NCBI GenBank assembly: GCA_951406725.2
Contig: OX597838.1
Coordinates: 6,324,001 to 6,388,000 of the forward strand
Length of the DNA: 64,000 nt
Source of the DNA: Octopus vulgaris
Lineage: Eukaryota
Reading direction: 5' to 3'
Every line of letters starts with the position of its first letter. Position 1 is the stretch's first letter. Shown here one piece after another: positions 6,382 through 63,461 of this stretch. Made by a program: the position numbers and the translations under genes. The notes beneath the pieces were generated by a model. That model did not search any database. It worked only from the letters and a program-made list of their open reading frames with translations, and was not told the origin of the DNA.

Positions 6382-6945
6382 AGGTGTATGGCTCAGTGGT
6401 TAGAGCGTCGAGGTTATATTTCGTTACTGCCCACAAGCGGCTACACACAGAGGGAACAAGCAAGGTCAGACAAACGGATTAAGTCGATTACATCGACCCC
6501 AGTGCGTAACTGGTACTTAATTTATTGACTCCGAAAGAAAGAAAGGCAAAGCCGACCTCGGCGGAATTTGAATTCAGAATGTAACAGCAGACGAAATACG
6601 GCTACACATTTCGCCCGGCGTGCTAACGTCTCTGCCGTCTCGCCGCCGAGGTTGTGAGTTCGATTCCCAGACCAGGGCTCCGTATTGTGTTTTGGAGCAA
6701 AACACTTTATTTCACGTTGCTCCACTGAAATCAGCCGTAGAAATGAGTTGCGACATCACTGGTACCAAGCTGTATCGGCCCCTTTGCCTTTCCCATGGAT
6801 AACATCAGTGGTGTGGAGAGAGAACACTGGTTTGCATGGTCGACTGCTGGCCTTCCACAAACAACCTTCACCGGACTTGTTGCTCGGAGGGTAACTTTCT
6901 AGGTGCAATCCCATGGTCATACATGACCGAAGGGGGGGGTCTCCA
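6382..6945 (+). mobile_element. SINE family H interrupted by a nested family-B SINE
   Basis: A box tggctcagtggttagagc (~6389) and B box gagttcgattccc (6656) are separated by a ~230-bp insert; body aligns to 3201-3500. Confidence 0.8.
6416..6647 (-). mobile_element. SINE family B (tail type 1), nested
   Basis: Reverse complement of ggcggcgag..ggcagagacgttagcacgccgggcgaaatg...gaattcaaattccgccgaggtcggctttgcctttc...; aligns to 37714-37948. Confidence 0.88.
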
Positions 6946-16501: not shown

Positions 16502-16852
16502 ACTGTATCCTTTTATCATAGTGTCTCACATCATGTTTTAGAACATGATTAGAAACCTCGTCTCCAAATGTGACTGCAATATTACCTAAATTATTGCATA
16601 AACAATATAATAAAAAATGAACAGCAAAGTAGTTAAAACAAACAAATAAAATAAATAAAATCAAATTAAACGAACATGAATACACAGGGGATACTGATAC
16701 TGCAGGTACCATAGACATTCCACACACAAACAATTACTAAACATAGATGCACACAGGGATATACGCATGCGCGAATAAAGACACATACAAGACGAATACA
16801 AAATGATAGATCGTTAGGAAGGAGATATACAAAAATGAAGGAAGAAGACAAA

Positions 16853-16897
16853 GGACCACTGATGAGGTAACAGAAGTGTGACGAAAGAACTGTGGCC
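16853..16897 (+). ncRNA. Decayed minimal type-I hammerhead ribozyme motif
   Basis: cca-CTGATGA-g-gtaac(agaagt)gtgac-GAAA-gaac-Tg-tgg; helix I cca/tgg; G at position 17 would block cleavage; AATAAA about 20 nt downstream. Confidence 0.55.
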
Positions 16898-17000
16898 GAA
16901 TATACAATTAATGTGAAATAAAGCTGAAGCAACGGAACACCAAATATATAGTGTGTGTGTTTTAGCTGACTACACTGGCAACATGACCAACCCAAATGTC

Positions 17001-17048
<48 letters not shown>

Positions 17049-25348: not shown

Positions 25349-25422
25349 ATGTGTGTGTGTGTATGTGTTTGAGTGTGGGTGTGCGAGTATTTTTGTGTGT
25401 GTATTCAATCTTATATATATAT

Positions 25423-25623
25423 AGGGAGATGTACTTGCATAGCGAGTGACTTGATCTGAGATCATGTACTTGAACGAAATCAATTGCAGCGTGGAAGGTG
25501 TTTATAAGCCATTTAAGAAACACATAAAAACGTGAGATTGACTTCAACATTTAAATTTAATTTGTCAAAATATTTTCGTTGCTTTGAGACCGCGACCTGT
25601 TCACTGACAAAGCTTCGTGCTGC
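25423..25623 (-). mobile_element. Family E ~200-bp element carrying a variant hammerhead motif
   Basis: Reverse-complement homologue of 35939-36138; both sit in (TA)n; motif at 25561-25611. Confidence 0.8.
25561..25611 (-). ncRNA. Minimal hammerhead, G3-C8 core variant
   Basis: Minus: tttgtca-GTGAACA-g-gtcgc(ggtctcaaa)gcaac-GAAA-atat-TT-tgacaaa; perfect 7-bp helix I; palindromic helix III AATATT. Confidence 0.6.
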
Positions 25624-25764
25624 ATCTGTGTTATATATATATATATATATAGTAGAAATATGTTATAAAGCGAAAATATAAAATACAAAATACAATATAT
25701 ATATATATATATATGTATATATTAATATAACTGTGTAAGTATGTATTTATGTATCTGTATGTGT

Positions 25765-25990
25765 GAGTGTGTGTTTGTGGTTGCCCCCACAATCACTTGC
25801 ATGGCTACCGATGTTGGCGTGTTTATGACCCTGTAATTTAGTACTGTGGCACAAAATGACAATAGAATGAGTACTACGCTTAGAAACAATAAATCCTGAT
25901 ATCAGTTTCTTCAGTTGAAATCCTTTTACGGTGGTGCTCCAGCATGGCTGCTGTGAGATTGCTGAAATAATTAAAAGAATAAAAGAACAA
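25765..25990 (+). mobile_element. SINE family A, degenerate 3' half
   Basis: accgatgttggcgtgtttatgaccctgtaatttag...ggtggtgctccagcatggctgc...aaaagaataaaagaa. Confidence 0.7.
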
Positions 25991-26615
25991 AAGAATATAT
26001 ATATACATATATTCCGAAATACACGTATTTATTCATTACGGATATATAATGAAGAAACACTTGCAATCATAACGCTATCCCTAATGGTCTATGTTATTAG
26101 ATCATGCAATATTTATATTAAAGAAGCACGAATTCCGCTTCTCTGATGGCAAATGGTGTCTGGCGTTGAGAGAAGAGTAAGTTGGTAATGATTTCAGCGT
26201 GTTTATATACGCGTGTGTGTGTGTATGTGCGTAAGTCAGAAATATCTGAAGGGCGAACTATAAAATACGAACAGATCTTTCATAATATATCATTGAAACG
26301 TATTTGTTTACATACGCAGGAACACGTACGCTCCCACGCATACACACACACGTACTTTTCCTCTCACTCGCACGCACTCCGTCAATATTTTTTAAAACCT
26401 TTTTCTTTTTTTCCTCTCTCTCTGTCCCTTTCTATTACTTTTCCGCAAATACATAGACACCGTTACAAACTAACAACGTTATTAAACTGTGCGTATATTA
26501 ATGGATATTACATATACATACATGAGCGTAATATAAATATATGTACATGTACGTATATACATATCTATATATCTATCCATTTATCTATCTATATATCTAT
26601 TCATCTATCTATTTA

Positions 26616-26706
<91 letters not shown>

Positions 26707-27431
26707 ACATACGTAATATATCTATGCAGCATATTCATAGATATGTATACATATATTTATATGAATATATACACAGCTTGCAAATATATATGTAAATATA
26801 TAAATCGTGTATGTCTATAAATATGTGCGTTGTGGGTTTGTGTCCGTGTCCATGTGTGCGTGAGTGTTTGTATGTGAGTGAGTGTTCGTTCGCGAAGTAG
26901 GTGGGAAATGGTTTGGTATGGTAAGACTCAAGAACCGCGCAATAAATCAAAAGCGATGGGCAGTTCCTTTCAATTACTGACAAACTGCAATTCCTTCAGA
27001 TAATTCATATCTGGATTCTTAATAGTCACTTCTCTTCAAACATGCTGCCTTTTACACGCTGGGGCCATTAATCATCCCCTCACACATAAAGTGTTCCCTC
27101 TTTATCTACTCCTCCTGCGGGGGTTCCTGATTGACAACATTTACACTTGCGCTACATACCCACACAGCCACATACACGGAGACCCGTAATATAGTAGAAG
27201 AAAAAACACGCGCCAAATTGAAATGATCTCTCTTTGCTCTATTGGCAAAGCTAACATTACAGAATACTCATTTTCTTTACTTTCAGTTAAGCCTTGTAAA
27301 AGCCAAGCCTTTAATCTATAAATCAATGGGATATTTCCTCAACTAATCCAATAATATTACACCCATAACTTCATAAGAAGGGAAAATGTAGTTTTGTATT
27401 TTCTTTACTTTCGCTGTAGTAATGGCATATA

Positions 27432-27481
<50 letters not shown>

Positions 27482-27538
27482 GCGTGTGTATGCGTTACCA
27501 AATATTTATAGATACGTACACACAGACACAGAAAGTCA

Positions 27539-27583
<45 letters not shown>

Positions 27584-27652
27584 ACATACACATATATATG
27601 CGCGTATGCGTTACTATATATTTATAAACACGTACACAATACATATATATGC

Positions 27653-27690
<38 letters not shown>

Positions 27691-27886
27691 GTGTATGTAT
27701 GTATGTATGTATGTATACAAGCACACACTCATACATCTGGTGTTGGTAATATATACATACGTAAACGATCATATACATTTATTTTTAAATTTTTTTTATG
27801 CAGGTGAACACATATATCTGCCGTTATATATATACATTCTATAAGGTATAGCGATATATGTACAAGTGTTTGACTTTCTGTGTATT

Positions 27887-27941
<55 letters not shown>

Positions 27942-27982
27942 CTGCTTACGTGTGCGCTTGAGCATATTAGTATGTATATATG

Positions 27983-28033
<51 letters not shown>

Positions 28034-29064
28034 TTAATAATTGCCTAACAGTTTGCCAGGTACTCGATACTTCATGCCACCTAATTGAAAACAAGGAGGT
28101 AAGCTTTACTGATATAGAGATTAACCAAAGATACAGCATATAAACCTTTAGGGTCAGCGTTCCTGCGTCAGAAATATACCAATTATGAGTTCAACTGCCG
28201 CTTTTTCCTTCAATTAATCATCTCCATATCTGACGTTAAAAACATAAAAACAAGAAAACCACGCAGTAGGAAATAAAAAAAGAAAAGAAATCCTTAAGTG
28301 ATGTCGTTTATTTACTTTGCTATTTATAATATACTCCATTCCATGATTCATTGCTCTTATCGTCCACGCAATTTAGCAGCATGGGATCTGATATGCTGAT
28401 AGTGTGCCGTAATGTATGTTATTAACATGTATAGTCTTTGATCTTAAAAACTAGATTAATCAGGTTATGAAATGGTTGAGCGTATTGCCACTGGATGCGG
28501 TTTATCCTGGTTATGTTTGTGCTTTTCCTGTTGAGTGTTATTGTTGTTTTCACGTTCGAGTTTTGTATTTTTATCTCTTGGTCAGACCCAGTAAAGCAGG
28601 TACACAAACGACCAAAATTCCTTTCCATTCATGACAATAGCGTGTTTTCTTGTCGAATAGTGCGTTCCGTACTGTATTATCCAAATTTTCCAACGCTTCC
28701 ATATAACGACTGAGCATAACATTTGCTTGAAAATTTCCCACTATTTATTATTCACTTGTCCAAACAAAGAGATGCGCTCAACTTGACGCTTCGCGATTTT
28801 TTATTATTTATTTGTCTATGTTCCGTTTTTCTTGTATTTCTCGTAGATTTGTTTGCTGTCATTAGATCAATCAGATTTCCTTTCCTCAACTGATTGTAAT
28901 CTTTCTCTCTGACATTCATGGACGTTTGGAAAGGTGGCATTACAAGTCGACCAGTAACCCGACGAACAACGCCCTATTATCACTGCACAGTGACTGTATT
29001 GAACATTTGTCTGCTCCTCGCTCCCTTTGCTCTATATATTTTGAGGAAAGCTATGTGTTAAATA

Positions 29065-29099
<35 letters not shown>

Positions 29100-29330
29100 A
29101 TCAAAATAGGTTAGTAAAAAATTCAATAGAAATGTTTTCGCCACCAGCGGTCTAGTGAGAAAGAGAAAATAGTCAAAGACTATATATATAAATTCAACAA
29201 CAATTGAGGAACGGCTTCGATAGGCCATTCAACCCAATAGAAAGAGCAGCCAGGACTCAAACCACCAAGTAGTAGTAATTCAGAAATTAAATATATATGT
29301 GTGTGTGTGTATGTGTGTGTGTGTGTGTGT

Positions 29331-29521
29331 ACCGTTGGCAATTTTTTTTACTCTGTCTCCCCTTCTCGGGATCTTTCCTTCTCCTATGTGTCTAAAGAAG
29401 AGCTCCGCTCGAAACGTAAAACCCTCCTTCTTCCCTTCCTTCCTGAGCGTCCAATAATACTATATTTGTTCCACATCCTCGCGTTGTTGTGTTTTCTCTT
29501 TGAGTTTTCATGTTTGGAATA

Positions 29522-29525
<4 letters not shown>
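29331..29525 (+). mobile_element. Family F short element with decayed hammerhead (29388-29422)
   Basis: gtgt-CTAAAGA-a-gagc(tcc)gctc-GAAA-cg-TA-aaac (G5 mutated); downstream ttcctgagcgt..aatac block shared with 46626-46815; partial reverse 3' copy at ~32660-32737; between (GT)n and (TA)n. Confidence 0.65.
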
Positions 29526-29558
<33 letters not shown>

Positions 29559-30163
29559 TCAGAAAGGCTGTTCAGGCTAAATTCGACGATCTATTATATA
29601 TCCGTTGGCATGGAAGTGTAGAAAACATTTGCATAGAGGAAAAGAGTCGTCTGTGCCGTGATGATTCGCAATGACTACCGCAATGCCAGTATCATGACTT
29701 TGTACACAACCACGAGAAACTGATAAAGATTTTGCTCTCAATAGACTGAAAGGCAATGTGAGCTTAAGATGGGAATACGGGGGAATTGACGCTTAGCAGT
29801 TTATCCAACATACTAACAATCCTGCGAGCCCGCCGCCTAAATATCATTATTATTGTTGTTGTTGTTGTTATATATTTTTATATTATATAACCTGTTTATT
29901 CTTTAATTATATGTTGACTATGTAGCGACTATCATCGGTGTCTGCTGCATATCATTCTGTACGAATATACCTAAGTTTATATAGGAGAACGCATTAAAAC
30001 TTCGAGATTAATGAGTCCCGAAGTATTGGAGGAAAGCATATTCTTATCATTATTATTATTATTATTATTATGATTATTATTATTACTATTATAATTATTA
30101 TTATTGTTATTATTATTATTATTATTATTAATATTATCATCTCCAATAAAAATGATAAGAAGA

Positions 30164-30258
30164 AGAAGACAGCTGCCTAAGGTTCCACGTAGTGGGAGTG
30201 AACCCGGAACCATGTAGTTGATTAGCGAGCTTCTCACCACACAGACACGCCTGCGTCT
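30164..30258 (-). mobile_element. SINE family A, 5' head only
   Basis: Reverse complement of agacgcaggcgtgtctgtgtggtgagaagctcgct...atggttccgggttcactcccact. Confidence 0.8.
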
Positions 30259-30423
30259 AAACAAGAAAGAGCATATATATATACGCAAGAAGATGGGTTG
30301 CCCGTTTCTAGAAATCTTTTAATCATTTCTTTGTTAAATAGAAATGAACGAGGACTACCGAACAAGGACAAATGAGGATTGTATTATTTACTGGGGATGC
30401 TGTTTAAAGTATATCAGACAGAT

Positions 30424-30589
30424 AGGCGCAGGAGTGGCTGTGTGGTAGTAGCTTGCTAACCAACCACATGGTTCCGGGTTCTGTCCCACTGCGTGGTATC
30501 TTGGGCAAGTGTCTTCTGATATAGCCCCGGGCCGACCAATGCCTTGTGAGTGGACTTGGTAGAGGAAACTGAAAGAAGCCTGTCGCATA

Positions 30590-30673
<84 letters not shown>

Positions 30674-30900
30674 ATATATGTTGTGTGTGTTTGTGTGTCT
30701 GTGTTTGTCCCCCTAGCATTGCTTGACAACCGATGCTGGTGTGTTTACGTCCCCGTCACTTAGCGGTTCAGCAAAAGAGACCGATAGAATAAGTGTTAGG
30801 CTTACAAAGAATAAGTCCCGGGATCGATTTGCTCGACTAAAGGCGGTGCTCCAGCATGGCCGCAGTCAAAATGACTGAAACAAGTAAAAGAGTAAAAGAG
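30424..30900 (+). mobile_element. SINE family A, full length (tRNA head + CORE-like block; resembles octopus OR-type SINEs)
   Basis: tggctgtgtggta A box, ggttctgtccc B box, CORE-like cttgggcaagtgtcttc, internal (TA)n/(TG)n, 3' gactgaaacaa(gtaaaaga)2. The family name is from memory. Confidence 0.9.
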
Positions 30901-32874
30901 AGAGAGAGAGTATCATAATTATTATCATGAAGACGACGACGACGATGATGATGATGCTGATAATGATGTTGGTTGTGCTGTTATTGGTCCTGATGTCGTT
31001 GTCGGTGATGACGTTGTTAAGTGCATGACGGTAGCAATGATGATGATAACGACGATGAGGGCGACTATCCCGATAATTATGGCGACACAGACGACGATGA
31101 CGACGATGACGACGATAGCACGTAATAAAGCGTTTCTCACACCAACCAACTCTTGAACTCCATAAATCCTAATCATTTCAGAAGGATGGATTCTATTAGA
31201 GATATTTCCAGTCAGTTTCATTATACGATGTGTTTACAATTAACTATCGTCAAACAGTTCAGCATTACCAGGAAATAAACTAATCGAGAGTCACACCGCC
31301 AATTCTCATCATGTCATCACTGTATAACCAACAGAAATCTCTCCCAGTGGAGACAGGCTTCGATGTTCATTTCTGTCCTTGACGTAACGGACACCATTTT
31401 ACTTTTATTTTCTACTTTGACTACGTTGTTCATATTTTGTATACAAGCATGGATGTTACAACATCATTTCATTTCTAGCTCCCTTGAAATTTAATGATTA
31501 TATAATTCAGCCGAAGAATGTAGGATGAGCAATGTAAAATAGTTGCAAAAATGAGGAATCCGGCGTCCTGTCCAGGTAGAGAATATATTGACTACTAAAA
31601 CCGGGAAACTGACTCGGGAAGGAACTTTTTCTATTCTTACCGTCTATTCAAATAAAACGTAGGATTTATGTGTTTCTAAGTTCATCGATGGCGAAAATAT
31701 ATATGGTAAATTGAACGTCGAGGAACCTCGTCACCATTATTTATCTCATGCATTCCGGATTTTCATTTTCTTTTCCTACCTCTGTCCCTTATAAAGTTGC
31801 ACAATATTTGTATGATGCTTTACCGATATCGATAATTCAATCACTATTTGGGAATGAATATATAGTAGCGAAAAACATTTATTATGTATTTTGTTATCAG
31901 CGAAATCTATTACTAAGATTTGTGCTCGGAACCAACGAAAATGTGTTGGATAAAATACAAGGAAATGAAACTTTCAAAGAAGAGTTCTGCTTTCCGTCAT
32001 ACCCCACCACATACATATACAAAAAAAAATAGCTAGCAAGAAACACGCACAAACACAATACGTTTAGAAATCAGCCATGAGTAACATATACTCGATCATT
32101 TCTTTAAAAACCACTTCGATTCTTAAAATCTATATTTAAAATATAAAACTGAAATGACTTTAAATGGTTATTCCCACCAGAAATCCAATATCGCATTCAA
32201 TTGTAGAAACGAACAACACTGAGAAAGAAACGGAGATTTTAAAAATACATTTCAGAAAGTAAAACGAGAAACAAGTACATCGTCGAATGTATTAGGCAAA
32301 CGTAAGAATTCAAAGGGTGGCGGGGAAAAAAAATCTATAGAGTTTCTGTTATGTTCTGTGTTAGACATTTATGTATATATTTTTTTGTAAAATTCTCTTT
32401 TTATGTCTCATTGATGTCTCATTCAAAAACTCAATTTGCTCACACTAAAATATTGAAAGCTTTCTGCTCTCTGTTCAGTTAAAAATGTTGAAAAGATAGA
32501 ACATCTCAAATGGAATAGTCACACACAGGCGCACGCACGCATACTCACACACACACTCACACACACACACACACACTCACACACACAGACACACACACAC
32601 ACACTCACACACACACACACACACACACACATACATGCGTACATATATATGTATGTATATATATAAAGTTAATCCAAACAAGAAAACACAGAAAAAAAGG
32701 GAAAAAAAGAAGAAAAAAACACAGCAACGCAGGACATATATGTATATATATATATATATATATATCTATATATATACAGATATATATACATATATGTATA
32801 TACATATATATATATGTGTGTATACATATAAACATATGTATATATATGCATATATATGTATATATATGTATATA

Positions 32875-32910
<36 letters not shown>

Positions 32911-33184
32911 CATATATATGTGTATGTGTATAACATCATTATTTTACATTTGTATGAATATCCACATGTACTGATGTAAAAACATCTGAGTTGTTGTAAA
33001 GTGTTCTATTGTGTGTTCTATTTTTCCGCTATTTCCTACTTACGCCTCCATTCCACTCACTTTCTCCGCACACACGTGTCGTTGACACATAGACTACAGC
33101 ACACACAAAAAAACGCACGGAAACACACATCTTCACATGGATGTACACGCGGAGCATTCACAGTGATGTTTATTATACATAACC

Positions 33185-33240
<56 letters not shown>

Positions 33241-33241
33241 A

Positions 33242-33321
<80 letters not shown>

Positions 33322-33807
33322 TATATGTGTATATGTGTGTGTGTGCATGCACATACGTACATGCATACGTACAAGTATACAACCATACATTCGTGCATAA
33401 ATACATCGACACACAAAGGGAGAGATTTTGTAGTGTATGAGATTGCGTGGGTGAGAGATACATAGAGAGAGAGAGAGAGGGAAGGAGGGAGACCGAGAAA
33501 GATATTATAAATATAAATTGCTCAATAAATATACAGTATTTAGAACAGAATGTGTATTTCAGTCAGTGATGCTGGAGTATTTGTTATCCCCGTTTCCCAC
33601 ACAGCAGTTCTGTGTCACAGAGTACATAAAGAGAAGCTAAACAAATATAATGTTTATAGAATATTTACACCAATTTACCTGCATGACAGTGATACAGACT
33701 GTCTATCAGTTGCATAACATAAATTAATTACTAAAAATCATTGTGAACTTAGGTTCTTATATAAGTTCATGTTAGTCGGATTGGTGCCTTCGTTTTAATG
33801 TTACTTT

Positions 33808-33940
33808 CCCTGTCGTTCGGCTGGTGTATATTCCAGCCGTCTTCGGGTGCCTTGTCTTGAACCCAGTTGTTGTATTGGAATTCGAAGGTGAATCTTTCAT
33901 TGATCTACAAAGGTCTGTTTCATCTTACGATTCCACACCA
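33808..33940 (-). mobile_element. Old Penelope-like 3' remnant with decayed hammerhead
   Basis: Minus: CCGAAGA-c-ggctgg(aatataca)ccagcc-GAA-cg; perfect 6-bp helix II, but one core A is lost and helix I is poor. Confidence 0.45.
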
Positions 33941-33947
33941 GGTATCT

Positions 33948-34028
<81 letters not shown>

Positions 34029-34169
34029 TTATGTTTGTATATATGTATGTATGTATATACAAACGGAGTTTAACGCAGGTATAATTCAAATACTTTTACT
34101 TCCGACACATGTTTCGAAGATTTTTTCCGTGTTAATTGTTAACAAGTGAAAAATACACTCATCTCTCTG

Positions 34170-34227
<58 letters not shown>

Positions 34228-34234
<7 letters not shown>

Positions 34235-34399
34235 GTGGCAAAATTATCATAATAACTGTTACTCTGAGTTTCATGTTCTCGTTTGTCGGAGAGATTTTGT
34301 GATATTTTTGATATTTTTTAAATAAGGAATTGTACTCTACCTCCGGTATTAAATTACTATTTCTTCCATCTTGATTCACATTTATTTGCTTACTCAGGT
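34228..34399. mobile_element. Family D element (diverged)
   Basis: Minus-strand ccgacaa-acg(agaa)cat-GAAA-ctcagag-ta-acag at 34256-34290; plus-strand tail tactctacc...ttcacattta..ttactc matches 9520-9588. Confidence 0.7.
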
Positions 34400-34423
34400 A
34401 TACACAAAGACACACACACAAAG

Positions 34424-34469
<46 letters not shown>

Positions 34470-34513
34470 TATTATATAGATAGATAGATAGATAGATAGA
34501 TAGAGAGATAGAT

Positions 34514-34603
<90 letters not shown>

Positions 34604-35901
34604 TGTGTGTGTGTGTGCGTGCGTGTGTGTGTGTAAACATACATGCATAATACATACATGCATTCATGCATGCATACATATAAACATAAATATAACAAAG
34701 TTTCTTTTCTTAAATATAACAGTTATCTATTACACTCAGGAGAACTCTGGTCTGTCCAGCACTCTAATAGAAGGCAATTATTGTCAAAAACATCATTAAG
34801 TTTGTCCAAGTTTGCGTATACGTGTTTATGAACAGACATTTTAGAGACACAATGATAGTTTTGCAGCATATAGGAGCGGATATATGCATGCGTGTATGTG
34901 CTTCCATATAAATGGGAGCGTATCTGCCCAGTTCTGAGGAAAGAAGCAAAGTGTCTTTAATACATTAAATTTACAATGAAGTATAAGTTTGAGGCAGCAT
35001 GAACATCTATATGTAGACATCGCGTATGTATAACAGGGTTTGTGTGATGTTTTAAATTTATGATCACTGACTTAATTTCGATTTTCCTTTATAGAGAGAA
35101 TTACATAATTTCGAACCCAATGGTTTTGAATTGATGTTATTCTTGCAGATGATAGAAGTCTCACGAACGTTCCATATTCATGTGTGTTCCTTTACGTATA
35201 TACCTCCATGATTTATCAAAAACCTTTGCAGAAATTCAATATCATGTCCCAAACAAATTAGGTAGAATCTGCAGAAACAAAAATTGTAATTTCACACAGT
35301 TCTCGTATCATGTTTTATGTTTTTGCCTCTTTGTAAATGTAAATATCTATTCAATATATTACATAATAACTTATTCCATATCGACATACGCTCTATTCTA
35401 CAGCCAAAAGTACACGCGCGTACATATAGTTATTCATGTATACCTTACCCTATATATATGTGAGTGTGTATGAGTATGTGTGAGTATTGATTTTTGTTTT
35501 ATGTTGAGTTATAAAAAACAATTTTCCTATCTATTTTTTTTTTAAACTGAAGGATCACTCAATACATTTCTCAGAAAACATTTATTATTCTTTAACTAGA
35601 GTAGCGCTTTTAGTGACTTCGAAGTCTCAGTCAGTTATTATTTAGTCAGTCTGACTGAGCATGCAAAATTTCACTCATCTCGTAGAATCACTACCGCGAC
35701 GGATAGAACAGTTAGCAGCATTCCGTCAACGACTTTACGTTTAATTCACTTTTGAGGGGCGGGGCAATAAAATAGTTACCTGTTGAACACTCGGGTGAAT
35801 GTAATTGAGTTAAGCTTCACACGAAATTGTCAGACTTGTGTCGAAATTTTACACCAAAACTATAGTACATGTGTGTGTGTGTGTCTTTGTACATACACAC
35901 A

Positions 35902-35938
<37 letters not shown>

Positions 35939-35941
<3 letters not shown>

Positions 35942-36138
35942 CAGCACGGATTTTATCAGTGAACAGGTCGCGGATTTTAGCGACGAAAATATTTCGACAA
36001 ATTAAACTTAAATGTTGAAGTGAATCGAACGGCTTTTATGTGTTTCTTAAATGGCTTACAAACACCTTTCACGCTGCAATTGTTTTCGTTCCAGGACACG
36101 ATCTCAGATCAAATCAATTGCTATGCAAGTACATCTCC
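35939..36138 (+). mobile_element. Family E element, second copy, with variant hammerhead (35952-36001)
   Basis: tttatca-GTGAACA-g-gtcgc(ggatttta)gcgac-GAAA-atat-TT-cgacaaa; (TA)n on both sides. Confidence 0.8.
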
Positions 36139-36596
36139 GTAATATATATATATATATAATATTCAATTTCCATAGATAATAATATATTCAATAGTATAGT
36201 CCAAGTACTCTGTAATCCATGATCTATCTAACCACATCGGATAATTGGGAACGAGATATTGTTCAAGCAAAGCAATCATAGTGTTCTTTCCCCGAGAGAG
36301 AAATCTTGAGTTCGATCCTTTAGACATTATGCAGTATAGTGTGTGTAGATTTAAAACGTTAAATAATAATGAAGATATGTTCATCCCCAAAACGTTTCAT
36401 GTGTCAATCCGTCAAATGTTTCTGTTACATGGAGATCCTAGGATGTCCTCTCCGGTTGCACCCTGTTGTTTTGGTGTCATTATGATTTCATCCAAGATAA
36501 ACATATCCCTGCAGCTTTTTTCAAGATATTACTACTATGAGCCATGTGTATATATATGTATATGTGTGTGTGTGTGTATATATATATTATACTATA

Positions 36597-37713: not shown

Positions 37714-38294
37714 AAGGGGGCCAGCTGGCAGAGATGTTAAGACGCCGGGCGAAATGCTTAGCAGTATTTCGTCTGCCGCTACGTTCTGAGTTCAAATTCC
37801 GCCGAGGTCGACTTTGCTTTTCATCCTTTCGGGGTCGATTAAATAAGTACCAGTTACGCACTGGGGTCGATATAATCGACTTAATCCGTTTTGTCTTTCC
37901 TTGTTTGTCTCTTCCTTGTTTAGCCCCTTGTGGGTAGTAAAGAAATAGGTATTTAGTCTGCCGCTACGTTCTGAGTTCAAATTCCGCCGAGGTCGACTTT
38001 GCCTTTCATCCTTTCGGGGTCGATTACATTAATACCAGTTACGCACTGGTGTCGATATGATCGACTTAATCCGTTTGTCTGTCCTTGTTTGTCTCTTCTC
38101 TGTTTAGCTCCTTGTGGGTAGTAAAGAAATAGGTATTTCGTCTGTCTTTACGCTCTAAGTACAAATTCCGCCGACGTCGACTTTGCCTTTCATCCTTTCG
38201 GGGTAGATAAATTAAGTACCCGTTGCGTTCTCGAATGGATTAATCGACTAGAACCTGCCCCCAAATTCCAGGCCTTGTGCCTAAAGTAGAAAAC
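37714..38294 (+). mobile_element. SINE family B head-to-tail trimer
   Basis: One head, then units starting gtattt at 37764, 37949, 38133 (period 184-185); 17-bp flanking repeat at 37697-37713 / 38295-38311 (2 mismatches). Confidence 0.9.
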
Positions 38295-52031: not shown

Positions 52032-53500
52032 TTAAGTTTTGTTTATGGTCCATTCAAGTAGTGAGTTTTTGTTGGGTGAGTTGTATCCAATTATGGGTGG
52101 CTTATCTGGTATTCCTTGAAGGCATCTATCCAGACTCCGTTTAAAGTTGATGGGATCCTTTTCCTCTTTGATCTCTTTCGGGACAATGTTAAATAGGGCA
52201 GGGCCTGTTGAGGAAAAGAAATTATGTTGCAGTGTACATGTATGCTGTGATCTTGAATTGGGCAGGGGACGTATGGCCCGTGGTCCCAGTCTTGGATGAA
52301 CCTTGAAGCTAATGTTCAGGTCGTTTGGGCAAAGTTGCGGTATATTCTCCACATCGTACAAATGATGTACCGCTCACGGCGACGCTGGAGGGAGTAAAGT
52401 TTCAAGGCTTTAAGGCGATCCCAATTACCGAGAGCAGCCATGCCTTCAATTCGTTTAGTGATTGCCCTCTGGGGTGATTCAATCCTTGAGACGTTTTGTC
52501 TTGTATGGGGAGACCACAGTGGGCAGCAGTATTCGAGGTGTGGCTGTAAAAAGGAGGAGAAAAGTGGTATGATGACACCTTGTTCTCTGGACCGGAGTGT
52601 TCTTAAGATCCCGGAACTCATCCTACGAGCTTTATCGACCTTCTTGTTGATGTGTGCACTCCAACTGAGATCGTCATCAACAATTACACCCAGGTCTCTG
52701 ATATTGTTAGAGGCTGTGAGCGGTTCCCCTGAAGGAAGAGAGTATGGCTGTTTTTGTGAGGAATTTCTTCCAAAATGCATCAGCTCAAATTTTCCCTCGT
52801 TCAGTTGCATTTTGTTTCTGTCTGTCCATTGACTCATAGCATATAGATCAGATTGGAGTTGAGTTCGGTCTGCTTCTTCATTGATGATTTGCTTGATCTT
52901 AGTGTCATCAGCAAATATTTTCACTTTGCAGTAATGTACGACACTGAAAAATTCGTTTATGTAAGTTATGAAGAGTAGTGGACCCAAGACAGTCCCCTGG
53001 GGAACACTGCTGGTGACTTTTACTGGGCTTGAGTGGACTCCATGAACTACAACATGATGTGTTCTATTCGTCAGGAAATACTTAATCCAGTGTAGAACTT
53101 TTCCACGGATTCCAACATTTGCCAATTTTGAGAGTAAGATATTATGGTCTACCCTGTCGAAAGCTTTACTGAAGTCAAGATATATGACATCAGAGTTCGA
53201 ACTTGTTCCCAAGGCTTTGAGTACATCTTCAATGTGGTCTAAGAGCTCTGTTAGACAGTCCCTGCCACAGCGAAAGCCATGCTGATTTGCATTTAAGAGT
53301 TTGTGGCTCACCAGGAAATCAGATATCCTTGATCTTAACACTCTTTCAAACACTTTAATGATGTGGGATGTGAGTGAGATTGGGCGATAGTTGAGGGCGA
53401 GGGATCTGTTTCCCTGTTTGAAAACCGGGATTACTGACTGGGATAGAAACTGTTTCGGTATATAACCTGCGTCTAACGAATTTCTCCAGAGGATGGTCAA
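52032..53500 (-). pseudogene. LINE ORF2 reverse transcriptase and C-terminal region (frameshift near 52330)
   Basis: NYRPISLTS, QHGFR, YLDFSKAFDRVDH, VPQGTVLGPLLF, FADD, RDLGV, PHLEYC, SLQRRRERY; continues LFNIVP..FKRSLD in the next frame. Confidence 0.96.
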
Positions 53501-53972
53501 AGGGACTGCAAGTTGGTGTCTACATTCCTTCTGGAGACTAGCGGGGAATCTATCAGGGCCTACAGCAGAGTAGTATTTGACCTCATTTATTGCTGCTATG
53601 ATGTCAGTGGCAGTGAAGGTTATGTCCGAGATTTTTGAGAGTCAACTTCGTTCGCTTGTCTTACGTCAATATCAGTGGGAACACTAAAGACAGAGCAGTA
53701 TTGTTTCTGCAGTATTTCTGCCATTTCTTTAGCATCGTGTTGGGGAATGCCGTTATCGTCAATCAATGGCCCAATGGGTGAGACAGTGGTTCTATGCTTA
53801 TTTGCGTAAGACTAGAACACTTTTGAGTTCTGTTTGATGTTTTTGATTACCCACTGTTTCTCCACAGCTCTTTGATTTTCAATGGAGGTTTTCATGTCGG
53901 TCTGCAGATGAAGTTTTTCCAGCTCTATCCTTTTCATTGTTGCTGAATGTGGATGTTGTATGTGGGAATATT

Positions 53973-54985
53973 TTAATTGGCTGATTTTTTGGTTGAGTCT
54001 TTTGATGCGCCTGATGAGTGTTTTTTTTTCTTTTTAGGGAGCCGGTTTCTGTTTGTGTTAGTAGATTTCGTGGGAGCGTGTTTAGAGCATGTATAGGTGG
54101 CAATTTTTTCAAAGTGCTGCCATGCGGTCTCAATATGCGTGGAATTGAGAGTAAAAGACCAGTCGATGGAAGACAGATCCTTTCTGATTGCTCCCCAGTC
54201 CGCTTTGTGGAAGTTTATGTTGTCAAATGAGTGCCGTGGAGTGGGATTGGCTGGTTTGGTTTTAATATGTCGGGAATTAAAATTGCAGAGTACCACGTCG
54301 TGGTCTGAGAGGAGAGCTTTTTCAGCTGAAATATTGTGAACGAAGCTAGAGTGATTGGTCAATACCAGATCCAAGATCGTTTTATACTGTCTCGTTGGTT
54401 CGAGCACTAGCTGAGTCAGGAAGTATTCATCCATTAGATTAAAGAACAGTTCTGCTGCTGCTCTATCTGATGTAGAGCATTTGCCTAACTTCAGTGTATT
54501 TGTGGGCCAGTTCACATGAGGGAGGTTAAAATCACCCATCACTAGTATGTTTCCGGAGTTGTACTTCCGAAGCAAGGACTTGACTTTGCTAAGGCACTTT
54601 TCACAGCACTTTAGATGTGCTTGGGGAGGCCTGTAAAGACCAACAATGATTATGTCCTTGGCCTTGCTGAATAGTGATACCGATTCACAGTAGCCATTGG
54701 AAAATATGTCCTTGACATCAAGTGAAAAGGAGTCATGGATAAAGATGGCTGTCCCTCCCTTATTTCGGTCTGTGTGATCCGTACGAACAATGGTGAAATC
54801 TATTATTTTCACCTCTGCGTCCATATGGGTGTTGTTCAGGTGAGTCTCGGATAGGATAAAGAAAGGGAAGCAATGTGCCGTTTCGGCAAGCCAACTCTCT
54901 ATATATGGGATCTTCCATTTTTGGGCAATAATTGATGGGTTGATGCCACGTACATTTAACAGGAATGTCGAGGTAAGGGAAGTTT
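53973..54985 (-). pseudogene. LINE ORF2 apurinic-type endonuclease domain
   Basis: LLNVRGI, LSETHL, KGGTAIFI, GLYRPP, VMGDFNLP, ILDLVLTN, SDHDVV. Confidence 0.95.
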
Positions 54986-55006
54986 GATGTTTGCATTGTT
55001 CTAAGT

Positions 55007-55059
<53 letters not shown>

Positions 55060-55334
55060 TATATATATATATAATATATTTATATATATATATATATATA
55101 CAAACATATATATTTATATATACATATATATATATATATTCACATATATATATATATACATACATACACACACATACATATATATATATACATCTATATA
55201 TATACGTGCGTGTGTTTGAGCTTGTGTAATGTCGCACTCACATAACTTGTGTGTGGACTTAAACTTATTTCTATGCCAAGAGATAGAGAGATAGCTACCT
55301 ATATACATGGACAATGTTAGTGAATGTATGTATG

Positions 55335-56138: not shown

Positions 56139-56552
56139 TACTCTTTTACTTGTTTCAGTCATTTGACTGTGGCGATGCTGCAGCACCGCCTTTAGTCGAG
56201 CAAATCGATCCCAGGACTTATTCTTTGGAAGCCTAGTACTTATTATATCGGTATCTTTTGCCGAGCCGCTAAGTTACGGGCACGTAAACACACCAGCATC
56301 GGTTTTCAAGCGATGTTGTGGGGTGGGGGCAAACACAGACACAGAAACTTATACACACACACACACACACATACATACTTATACATATATACGATGGGCT
56401 TCTTTCAGTTTCTGTCTACTAAATCCACTCACAAGGCTTTGGTCAGCCCGAGTCTATAGTAAAAGGCACTTGCCCAAGGTGTCACGCAGTGGGACTTAAC
56501 CCGGAACCATGTGGTTCGTAATGAAGCTACTTACCACACAGCCACTCCTACC
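56139..56552 (-). mobile_element. SINE family A, full length
   Basis: Reverse-complement match to 30424-30900 along its whole length. Confidence 0.9.
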
Positions 56553-62763: not shown

Positions 62764-63461
62764 AAGGCGGGTTGCTGGCAGAATCGTTTACACGGCTGGC
62801 GATATGCCTAGCGGTATTTCGTCTGTCGTTACGTTCCGTGTTCAAATTCCGCCGAGGTCAACTTTGCCTTTCATCCTTTCGGGGTCGATAAATTAAGTAC
62901 CAGTTACGCACTGGGGTCGATGTAATCGACTTAATACCTATGTCTGTCCTTGTTTGTCCCCTCTGTGTTTAGCCCCTTGTGGATAATAAAGAAATAGGTA
63001 TTTCGTCCGCCGTTACGTTCTGAGTTCAAATTCCGCCTTTCATCCTTTCAGGGTCGATTAAATAAATACCAATGACGCATTGGGGTGACGTAATCGACTT
63101 GATCTCTTTGTCCCCTCTATGTTTAACGCCTTGCGGGCAATAAAGAAAGAAATATTTTGTTAAAATTCCCTTTCGGGGTCGATAAATTAAGTACCAGTTA
63201 CGCAATGGAGTCGATTTAATCGACTTAATCCGTTTGCCTGTCCTTGTTTGTCTCCTCTGTGTTTAGACCCTGGTGTGTAGTAAAGAAATAGGTATTTCAT
63301 ATGTCTTAACGTACTGAGTTCAAATACCGCCGAGGTCGAGTTTGCCTTTCTTCCTTTCGGGGTCGATAAATTGCGTAAACCCAGTTGCGTACTAGGGTCG
63401 ATCAAATCGACAGGCCCCTTCCCCCCAAATTTGTAGCCTTGTGCCTAGAGTAGAAAATAAT
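62764..63461 (+). mobile_element. SINE family B head-to-tail multimer (~4 units)
   Basis: One head; units start gtattt at 62814, 62998, (partial ~63165) and 63292; last unit has tail type 2. Confidence 0.9.

What the first reader, a model, noticed from the sequence alone, without database searches (positions are those of the whole stretch)
25561..36001. Family E hammerhead has a swapped G3-C8 core plus an extra G before helix II
Seen: both copies (25561-25611 minus; 35952-36001 plus) read GUGAACA-G where CUGANGA is expected, followed by gtcgc/gc(g/a)ac, GAAA, AUAU, UU and a closing helix (perfect 7 bp in the first copy). Known: positions 3 and 8 form a tertiary Watson-Crick pair, and compensatory swaps can keep activity. 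An extra residue between A9 and 10.1 occurs in some viroid hammerheads. Inference: a doubly non-canonical ribozyme with a UUU cleavage triplet is fixed in a multicopy family that canonical-core searches would miss. The double change suggests selection on catalysis.
Basis: partly seen in the sequence, partly recalled or inferred. Interest (0 to 1): 0.78.

Follow-up and report, generated by a model that had tools for sequence, protein, structure and literature searches.

The report
Swapped-core hammerhead in Penelope retrotransposon
Thousands of copies of an animal jumping gene of the Penelope type carry a small hammerhead-shaped RNA motif in which two paired core letters have traded places; related elements keep the same pair with other letters, so the motif likely still cuts RNA, probably slowly, although most copies were likely made from uncut RNA.

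Summary
Confirmed. Both copies lie in the ~203-nt terminal repeat (pLTR, holding the 5'UTR and ORF start) of a Penelope-like retrotransposon (RT + GIY-YIG, Nematis-like linker). The core 16-mer has 7,098 exact genomic hits (control 1). G3 and C8 are the family state (93 of 100 listed hits; 59 of 65 copies sampled independently of the core).

Relatives show compensation. Sister families in the same genome and two metagenome relatives have C3-G8; a third has U3-A8.

Only the swap is unusual. The extra nucleotide is the norm in Penelope hammerheads, and a UUU site is published (oyster). I found no natural G3-C8 in eight literature searches, but the key survey (Lünse 2017) was not held. Two earlier scan notes saw G3-C8 in other genomes.

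Against strong selection on catalysis:
- Only 2 of 100 copies begin at the predicted cut; 70 of 100 begin upstream of the core.
- The sister family mostly carries A9C.
- Within-family constraint is not significant (p=0.06).
- Both window copies have a broken stem pair.

Verdict: a new core variant of a known ribozyme class, likely weakly active. Cleavage is untested.

The parts
25422..25627 (-). Copy 1: solo pLTR unit of a Penelope-like element (5'UTR + first ~30 codons + tail), older subfamily, between (TA)n runs
   Evidence: blastn to full element L108, 86-88%; subfamily states
25561..25611 (-). Copy 1 minimal type I hammerhead motif; helix I 7 of 7 pairs; one helix II mismatch
25598..25604 (-). 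Core positions 3-9 with G3 (25604) and C8 (25599); extra G at 25597
25567..25570 (-). UUU triplet 25570-25568; predicted cut between 25568 and 25567 (inferred)
   Evidence: hammerhead numbering as in PMC4209133
25422..25512 (-). Start of the RT-EN ORF (ATG at 25512), broken by stops in this copy
35941..36143 (+). Copy 2: solo pLTR unit, young subfamily, between (TA)n runs
   Evidence: 93% to L108 pLTR; genome search
35952..36001 (+). Copy 2 minimal type I hammerhead motif; helix II 5 of 5 pairs; two helix I mismatches including 2.1-1.1
35959..35966 (+). Core 3-9 with G3 (35959) and C8 (35964), then extra G (35966)
35992..35995 (+). UUU triplet 35992-35994; predicted cut between 35994 and 35995 (inferred)
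36051..36140 (+). First 30 codons of the element's ORF; 24 of 30 identical to the N-terminus of the full-length element
16635..17007 (+). In-window control: decayed pLTR of the sister Penelope lineage with canonical core C3-G8-A9 (16859-16865), extra G and the same helix II layout
   Evidence: blastn 74-78% to sister pLTR; sequence

Best explanation
The motif is a minimal hammerhead fold in the 5' untranslated leader of a Penelope-like retrotransposon, carried by thousands of copies with G3 and C8 in place of the usual C3 and G8, and it likely still cuts its own RNA after the UUU, probably slowly and probably only as a dimer or with help from the element's protein. SHOWN: host element, position (about 55 nt upstream of the ATG), family-wide G3/C8, covariation of pair 3-8 with related families, copy-end distributions. 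INFERRED (1) G3-C8 restores the tertiary 3-8 pair that positions the nucleotide-8 2'-OH, giving partial activity. (2) Helix III is a 6-nt palindrome that would form only between two molecules. (3) U17 rather than C17 would keep G3 from being trapped in helix I. (4) Transcription likely starts about 15 nt upstream of helix I; reverse transcription likely starts at two sites inside the ORF start (unit positions ~145 and ~203) and runs to the RNA 5' end, giving the short solo and inverted copies, mostly from uncut RNA. (5) Cleavage would therefore not make the template ends; it would remove a ~58-nt leader from a minority of transcripts or split read-through transcripts, acting as a brake or processing step.
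For: Host: full element L108/L124 with two pLTRs 4,261 nt apart; ORF with RT motif RYVDD, CX3CX2C linker and GIY-YIG (Pfam GIY-YIG E=1.6e-5, RVT_1 in 4 of 24 aligned members); unit encodes ORF start. Inverted tail-less partner copies in 12 of 30 loci; bimodal 3' ends, 38 of 100 at 141-148 and 49 of 100 at 202-205, as described for PLEs (PMC8557442; PMC11167929). Core: 7,098 exact hits; 93 of 100 listed wildcard hits have G3+C8 and none C3-G8; 59 of 65 core-independent copies G3-C8-A9-G-UUU; retained across old and young subfamilies while loop II changes. Covariation: sister family (RT 57% identical, 99 SH-aLRT clade in a quick tree) C3-G8, older family C3-G8, metagenome relatives C3-G8 (L166, L171) and U3-A8 (L168); pair 3-8 canonical in 10 of 10, whole structure 86% paired vs 70% shuffled, 0 of 500. 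The two shared stem variants (1.3 A>G, 11.1 C>U) keep a wobble pair. C3G/G8C partly rescues a PLE hammerhead, which needs its protein and is not needed for insertion in vitro (PMC11167929). Modelled G3-C17 trap 3.5 kcal/mol vs G3.U17 1.3; PMC3884650 states G3-C8 is less active with C17 (data not shown there).
Against: No cleavage data of any kind. Only 2 of 100 copies start at positions 53-59, no more than background. Sister family dominated by A9C (90 of 100 listed) yet full of intact ORFs, so a canonical core is not needed for spread. G3.G8 mismatch copies are in excess (34 of 100 listed of 453 position-8 variants, vs G3C 11 of 100 of 220). Shared variants: 1 of 42 motif sites vs 7 of 46 free sites, p=0.06. 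The palindromic helix III duplex is worth only -0.2 kcal/mol, and G3.U17 is predicted paired 67-83% of the time. The 10-sequence alignment holds related sequences (three G-C rows are one event) and L166 is misaligned on its 3' side. Half of the sister copies examined have U17 with C3-G8 (12 of 24), so the link to position 17 is only suggestive.
Confidence: 0.6

Rival explanations
1. The motif descends from a hammerhead and keeps its fold, but no longer cuts at a useful rate; it is kept as a structural or protein-binding element of the RNA leader, or partly as internal promoter sequence.
For: Copies mostly include the whole motif (70 of 100 start at or before position 19; 2 of 100 at the cut). 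A9C dominant in the very active sister family. G3.G8 excess. Hammerhead mutants do not impair PLE insertion in vitro and no read ends were seen at the cut in Anolis (PMC11167929). Naiad PLEs thrive without hammerheads (PMC8557442).
Against: Pair 3-8 is a single tertiary pair known to matter for the active conformation; it stays Watson-Crick as C-G, G-C and U-A across relatives, which a DNA promoter motif would not explain. All other catalytic bases and the NUH site are kept in this family.
Confidence: 0.27
2. It is an efficient ribozyme that defines the ends of the transposition template or of a circular RNA, as proposed for retrozymes.
For: Model proposed in PMC4209133; 7-bp helix I is long for a min-HHR; religation would hide the cut in genomic copies.
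Against: No pile-up of copy ends at the cut (2 of 100; 0 of 100 with a looser alignment that over-extends). Copies start near position -3 and stop at ~145 or ~203, not at cut-to-cut units. No loop I is available for tertiary contacts; helix III is unstable.
Confidence: 0.1
3. Chance resemblance of an AT-rich repeat to a hammerhead.
For: Rfam gives no hammerhead match; single-copy fold z-scores are weak.
Against: Canonical hammerheads sit at the homologous position, just upstream of a homologous ORF start (40% identical), in sister families and relatives; descriptor hits 2 vs 0.05 in shuffles.
Confidence: 0.02

Closest known systems
Minimal type I hammerheads of metazoan Penelope-like elements (min-HHRs; Cervera & de la Pena 2014, PMC4209133)
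   Same: Type I topology, in the pLTR, extra nucleotide between 9 and 10.1, G10.1-C11.1, tiny palindromic helix III, mostly solo or inverted copies; U3-A8 covariant and a UUU site (Crassostrea) already listed.
   Different: G3-C8 is absent from the representative alignment as read (Fig. S3); the extra base is G where the consensus is H (G listed for Nasonia); helix I is 7 bp rather than 4-5.
PAc (Poseidon) hammerhead of Anolis carolinensis (Frangieh et al. 2024, PMC11167929)
   Same: Hammerhead next to the ORF start; two RT start sites inside the ORF give tail and no-tail ends; the engineered C3G/G8C mutant is the core seen here and is partly active; uncut RNA is the main template.
   Different: There G3-C8 is a lab mutant; here it is the natural family state. 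The cut lies upstream of the ATG here, downstream in PAc. Different PLE clade.
Nematis/Neptune clade EN+ PLEs (Craig et al. 2021, PMC8557442)
   Same: RT, then CX2-5CxxC linker, then C-terminal GIY-YIG with CCHH; (TA)n insertion context; inverted pLTRs and tail. The short spacing after CxxC matches the Nematis rows of Fig. S2, not Neptune.
   Different: No tree with named references was built, so Nematis is a motif-level call. Tail is ~58 nt rather than 30-40.
Natural hammerhead core variants (Perreault et al. 2011, PMC3088659)
   Same: Natural covariation of pair 3-8 (to U3-A8).
   Different: G3-C8 not mentioned in the passages read.

Membership tests
Hammerhead ribozyme | Three-way junction with helices I, II, III | tested here: met
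   Helix I 7 bp, helix II 5 bp in intact copies, helix III 2 bp + palindrome; covariation across relatives
Hammerhead ribozyme | Literal core CUGANGA | tested here: not met
   GUGAACA in 90 of 100 listed hits; no Rfam hammerhead match
Hammerhead ribozyme | Watson-Crick pair between positions 3 and 8 | tested here: met
   G-C here; canonical in 10 of 10 aligned motifs, three pair types
Hammerhead ribozyme | U4, G5, A6, A9, G12, A13, A14, A15.1-U16.1 and NUH site | tested here: met
   129-134 of 135 copies at each core position, U17 in 135 of 135 (sample partly chosen by the core); no shared variant at 11 core sites in 65 core-independent copies
Hammerhead ribozyme | Site-specific self-cleavage after N17 | not testable with these tools
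   No raw RNA reads offered; indirect genomic test shows no pile-up of ends at the site
PLE minimal hammerhead | Located in the pLTR of an RT + GIY-YIG element | tested here: met
   L106, L108-L111, L124
PLE minimal hammerhead | Extra nucleotide 9/10.1, G10.1-C11.1, palindromic helix III | tested here: met
PLE minimal hammerhead | Cleaves as a dimer or with protein help | not testable with these tools
   Fold model: helix III duplex only -0.2 kcal/mol
EN+ Penelope-like element | Single ORF with RT and C-terminal GIY-YIG; pLTRs, inverted partial copies, tail | tested here: met
Nematis clade | RT phylogeny grouping with named Nematis elements | not tested
   Only linker spacing compared with Fig. 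S2 rows; tree had no named references
Non-LTR retrozyme | Non-coding tandem repeats with a hammerhead in each unit | tested here: not met
   Copies are solo or inverted pairs and carry the ORF start; one tandem array of 144-nt units seen (L138)

The most novel reading that the evidence does not exclude
This is an active natural hammerhead with an inverted G3-C8 catalytic pair, fixed in over 7,000 copies. It arose from a C3-G8 ancestor through a G3.G8 intermediate still visible among older copies, on a U17 background that keeps G3 free. With its C3-G8-C9 sister and a U3-A8 relative it forms a natural mutational series, showing that Penelope elements keep the ribozyme active but tuned slow, because their templates must stay uncut.
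Probability: 0.25. Interest if true: 0.65.

Novelty: new variant of a known kind. Interest (0 to 1): 0.45.

Why it matters
What Penelope hammerheads do is still open. This genome offers a natural experiment: related, recently active families with G3-C8, C3-G8-A9 and C3-G8-C9 cores in the same setting, plus about 10,000 insertions whose ends record whether the template had been cut. If G3-C8 cleaves, it would add the third Watson-Crick state of the 3-8 pair to natural hammerheads (I found no prior report, but could not read the main survey) and would mean that descriptor searches fixed on CUGANGA miss whole families. The chemistry would not surprise a specialist, since the engineered swap is known to be partly active.

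Tried and rejected
Rfam on the whole window: 226 matches at E<=1, the 150 shown all microsatellite hits to miRNA models, 76 not shown. On an intact copy: one irrelevant hit. The repeat finder was swamped by microsatellites. A strict descriptor found neither window copy because each has a stem mismatch.

Pfam found nothing on the 524-aa fragment; PDB sequence search found nothing.

C3-G8 revertants inside this family: the pattern gave 757 hits, but none of the 10 loci examined matched this family's unit; they belong to older sister-like lineages.

G3.G8 copies as one clade or an evolutionary intermediate: 24 G8 and 24 T8 control copies have similar age and haplotype spread (18 vs 20 old type). 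Inconclusive; one small shared haplotype (L188, L189).

Cap-derived G at copy 5' ends: 5 G, 6 C, 3 T, 1 A of 15; not established. A looser 5'-end alignment over-extended and was not used. A splice-acceptor-like motif just upstream of the unit (788 hits) was not tested for splicing.

Sequencing runs: no RNA holder listed on record; only contigs were available, so nothing can be said on expression or RNA ends. The careful tree did not finish; the quick tree is cited.

Papers not held: Lunse 2017, Przybilski & Hammann 2007, Martick & Scott 2006, Hammann 2012.
Full report
OBSERVATION. Both motifs are present as described: helix I, core GUGAACA, an extra G, a 5-bp helix II, GAAA, AUAU, UU and the closing strand. 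Copy 1 has a perfect 7-bp helix I but a C-A mismatch in helix II. Copy 2 has a perfect helix II but two helix I mismatches, one at the pair next to the cut. A relaxed descriptor hits only these 2 places in the window, against a mean of 0.05 in 40 shuffles. The two copies share a ~203-nt unit at 86% identity.

THE FAMILY. The window lies in a 2.8-Gb genome. The core 16-mer has 7,098 exact hits against 1 for the control; a pattern further downstream has 10,446. With core positions 3, 7, 8, 9 and the extra base left free there are 7,849 hits; of the 100 listed, 90 read GUGAACAG, 93 have G3 and C8, none has C3-G8. In 100 copies chosen by the downstream pattern, 65 cover the whole motif and 59 of these read G3, C8, A9, extra G, UUU. 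Old and young subfamilies differ in loop II and the UTR but share the core. Contigs of four runs from four coded organisms hold the unit; among the 40 of 78 differences shown, none is a substitution inside the motif.

THE HOST. Longer copies run upstream through a ~1-kb microsatellite-rich 3'UTR into an ORF. L108 holds a complete unit with two motifs 4,261 nt apart (its ORF is interrupted); L106 holds a 1,025-codon open frame. [quoted passage not shown] The linker spacing resembles the Nematis rows of PMC8557442 Fig. S2; this is a motif-level call. The last 90 nt of the unit are the first 30 codons of this ORF, so the motif lies in the 5'UTR. Penelope hallmarks are present: inverted partial partner copies in 12 of 30 loci, (TA)n flanks, and two 3' end classes, 38 of 100 at 141-148 and 49 of 100 at 202-205. 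A sister family's RT is near-identical to a protein that NCBI labels Octopus vulgaris, which suggests an octopus host.

COVARIATION. A sister family (RT region 57% identical, joined with SH-aLRT 99 in a quick tree; N-terminus 40% identical) has the same layout at the same place. Its pattern has 3,960 hits; 98 of 100 listed have C3 and all have G8, but 90 have C at position 9, 6 have A and 4 have U. An older lineage has a fully canonical core with the extra G (757 hits; loci), and a decayed canonical sister copy lies in the window at 16859-16897. Of 9 metagenome relatives, 3 gave a scorable motif behind the ORF: two C3-G8 and one U3-A8 with C9, all with an extra G. On a 10-row alignment, pair 3-8 is canonical in 10 of 10 (6 C-G, 3 G-C, 1 U-A), and the structure is 86% paired against 70% in shuffles, 0 of 500. 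The rows are related, the three G-C rows are one event, and L166 is misaligned on its 3' side. Conclusion: G3-C8 is a lineage-specific compensatory swap from a C3-G8 ancestor (direction inferred from the relatives, not formally rooted).

WHAT IS AND IS NOT UNUSUAL. PMC4209133 (main text parts 1-2 of 4; supplement file 2 parts 1-2 of 3; file 1 could not be searched) lists the extra nucleotide between 9 and 10.1 as a conserved trait of PLE min-hammerheads, reports U3-A8, and shows a UUU site in Crassostrea and an extra G in Nasonia. No row read has G3-C8. PMC3088659 (passages) reports natural covariation to U3-A8 only. PMC11167929 (parts 1-2 of 4) shows that C3G and G8C kill a PLE hammerhead, the double mutant partly rescues it, cleavage needs the element's protein, and hammerhead mutants do not affect insertion in vitro. 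PMC8495972 (passages) repeats the partial rescue. PMC3884650 (passages) notes G3-C8 is more active with G17 than with C17 (data not shown). Also seen: PMC8557442 (passages and supplement passages), PMC6765202 (passages and part of section 11), PMC6155905, PMC10085705, PMC2920678 (passages), bioRxiv 10.64898/2026.07.22.740005 (part 1 of 5). Eight searches showed no natural G3-C8 report. Lunse et al. 2017, the large survey of PLE hammerhead variants, was not held and may contain one. Two earlier unchecked scan notes describe G3-C8 plus an extra base behind PLE RTs in other genomes.

DOES IT CUT? Untested. For: every other catalytic base is kept, the 3-8 pair is compensated, and the only two shared variants in stems keep wobble pairs. 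Folding models give a G3.U17 extension of helix I worth 1.3 kcal/mol, against 3.5 if position 17 were C, so U17 may be permissive for G3; but 12 of 24 sister copies examined also have U17. Against fast cleavage: the monomer cannot close helix III (+5.4 kcal/mol) and the palindromic duplex is worth only -0.2. In the core-independent sample, 70 of 100 copies start at or before unit position 19, 43 cluster at -19 to +3, only 3 extend beyond -20, and 2 start at 53-59 where the cut lies, no more than background (several copies share a junction and are not independent). Most insertions were thus likely copied from RNA still holding the whole motif. Shared variants fall on 1 of 42 motif sites and 7 of 46 free sites, p=0.06. 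Position-8 variants number 453, of which 34 of 100 listed are G, whereas position-3 variants number 220, of which 11 of 100 are C. The excess of mismatched G3.G8 copies suggests some spread of a broken core or a relic intermediate; age and haplotype comparison with T8 controls did not decide this. The sweep of A9C in the sister family, which has many intact 1,312-codon frames, points the same way: a textbook core is not required for spread.

MECHANISM. Shown: position, host, family state, covariation, end distributions. Inferred: transcription starts about 15 nt upstream of helix I; the RT-EN protein nicks AT-rich DNA and primes inside the ORF start at two sites, as in PAc, copying back to the 5' end; the hammerhead cuts slowly, as a dimer or with protein help, removing a ~58-nt leader or splitting read-through RNA in a minority of molecules. 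Confidence that the motif is a PLE hammerhead homologue is about 0.95; in the whole mechanism 0.6. A non-cutting structural relic gets 0.27 and an efficient template-defining ribozyme 0.1.

VERDICT. Real, correctly parsed, and part of a known kind of system. One feature, natural G3-C8 fixed at high copy number, appears new but is chemically expected. Interest 0.45.

Noticed in passing
L112:6225-6265; 3,960 genome hits: The very young sister Penelope family has C instead of A at core position 9 in 90 of 100 listed copies; an older minority keeps A9. A distant relative (L168) also has C9 before an extra G, so C9 plus extra G may be a tolerated core form.
   Followed up: partly
window 16635-17007 (+): Decayed pLTR of the sister lineage with a canonical C3-G8-A9 core; this copy has G at position 17.
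   Followed up: partly
L124:1155-1180; 788 genome hits: A branch-point plus pyrimidine tract plus AG motif sits right where most short copies begin; it could be a 3' splice site or overlap the transcription start.
   Followed up: partly
L175, L177, L179, L182, L184, L187-L206: Copies with a mismatched G3.G8 core are several times more common than the mirror mutation predicts; two share a distinct loop II haplotype.
   Followed up: partly
L062:1-760: A different, Neptune-like GIY-YIG frame is joined to part of this family's 3'UTR and pLTR; possible template switch between Penelope families or an inverted insertion.
   Followed up: no
L138:1747-3016: Tandem array of at least seven tail-less 144-nt units separated by short TA spacers, each with the motif; a natural multimer that could allow dimer cleavage.
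   Followed up: no
window 52319-55079 (-): Two long frames (368 and 441 codons) that read like the AP-endonuclease and RT parts of a LINE retrotransposon (recognised by eye).
   Followed up: no
window 6417-6647, 37716-38131, 62766-62996; 30709-30870 and 56162-56323: Other dispersed repeats at 83-89% identity, probably SINE-like; not examined.
   Followed up: no
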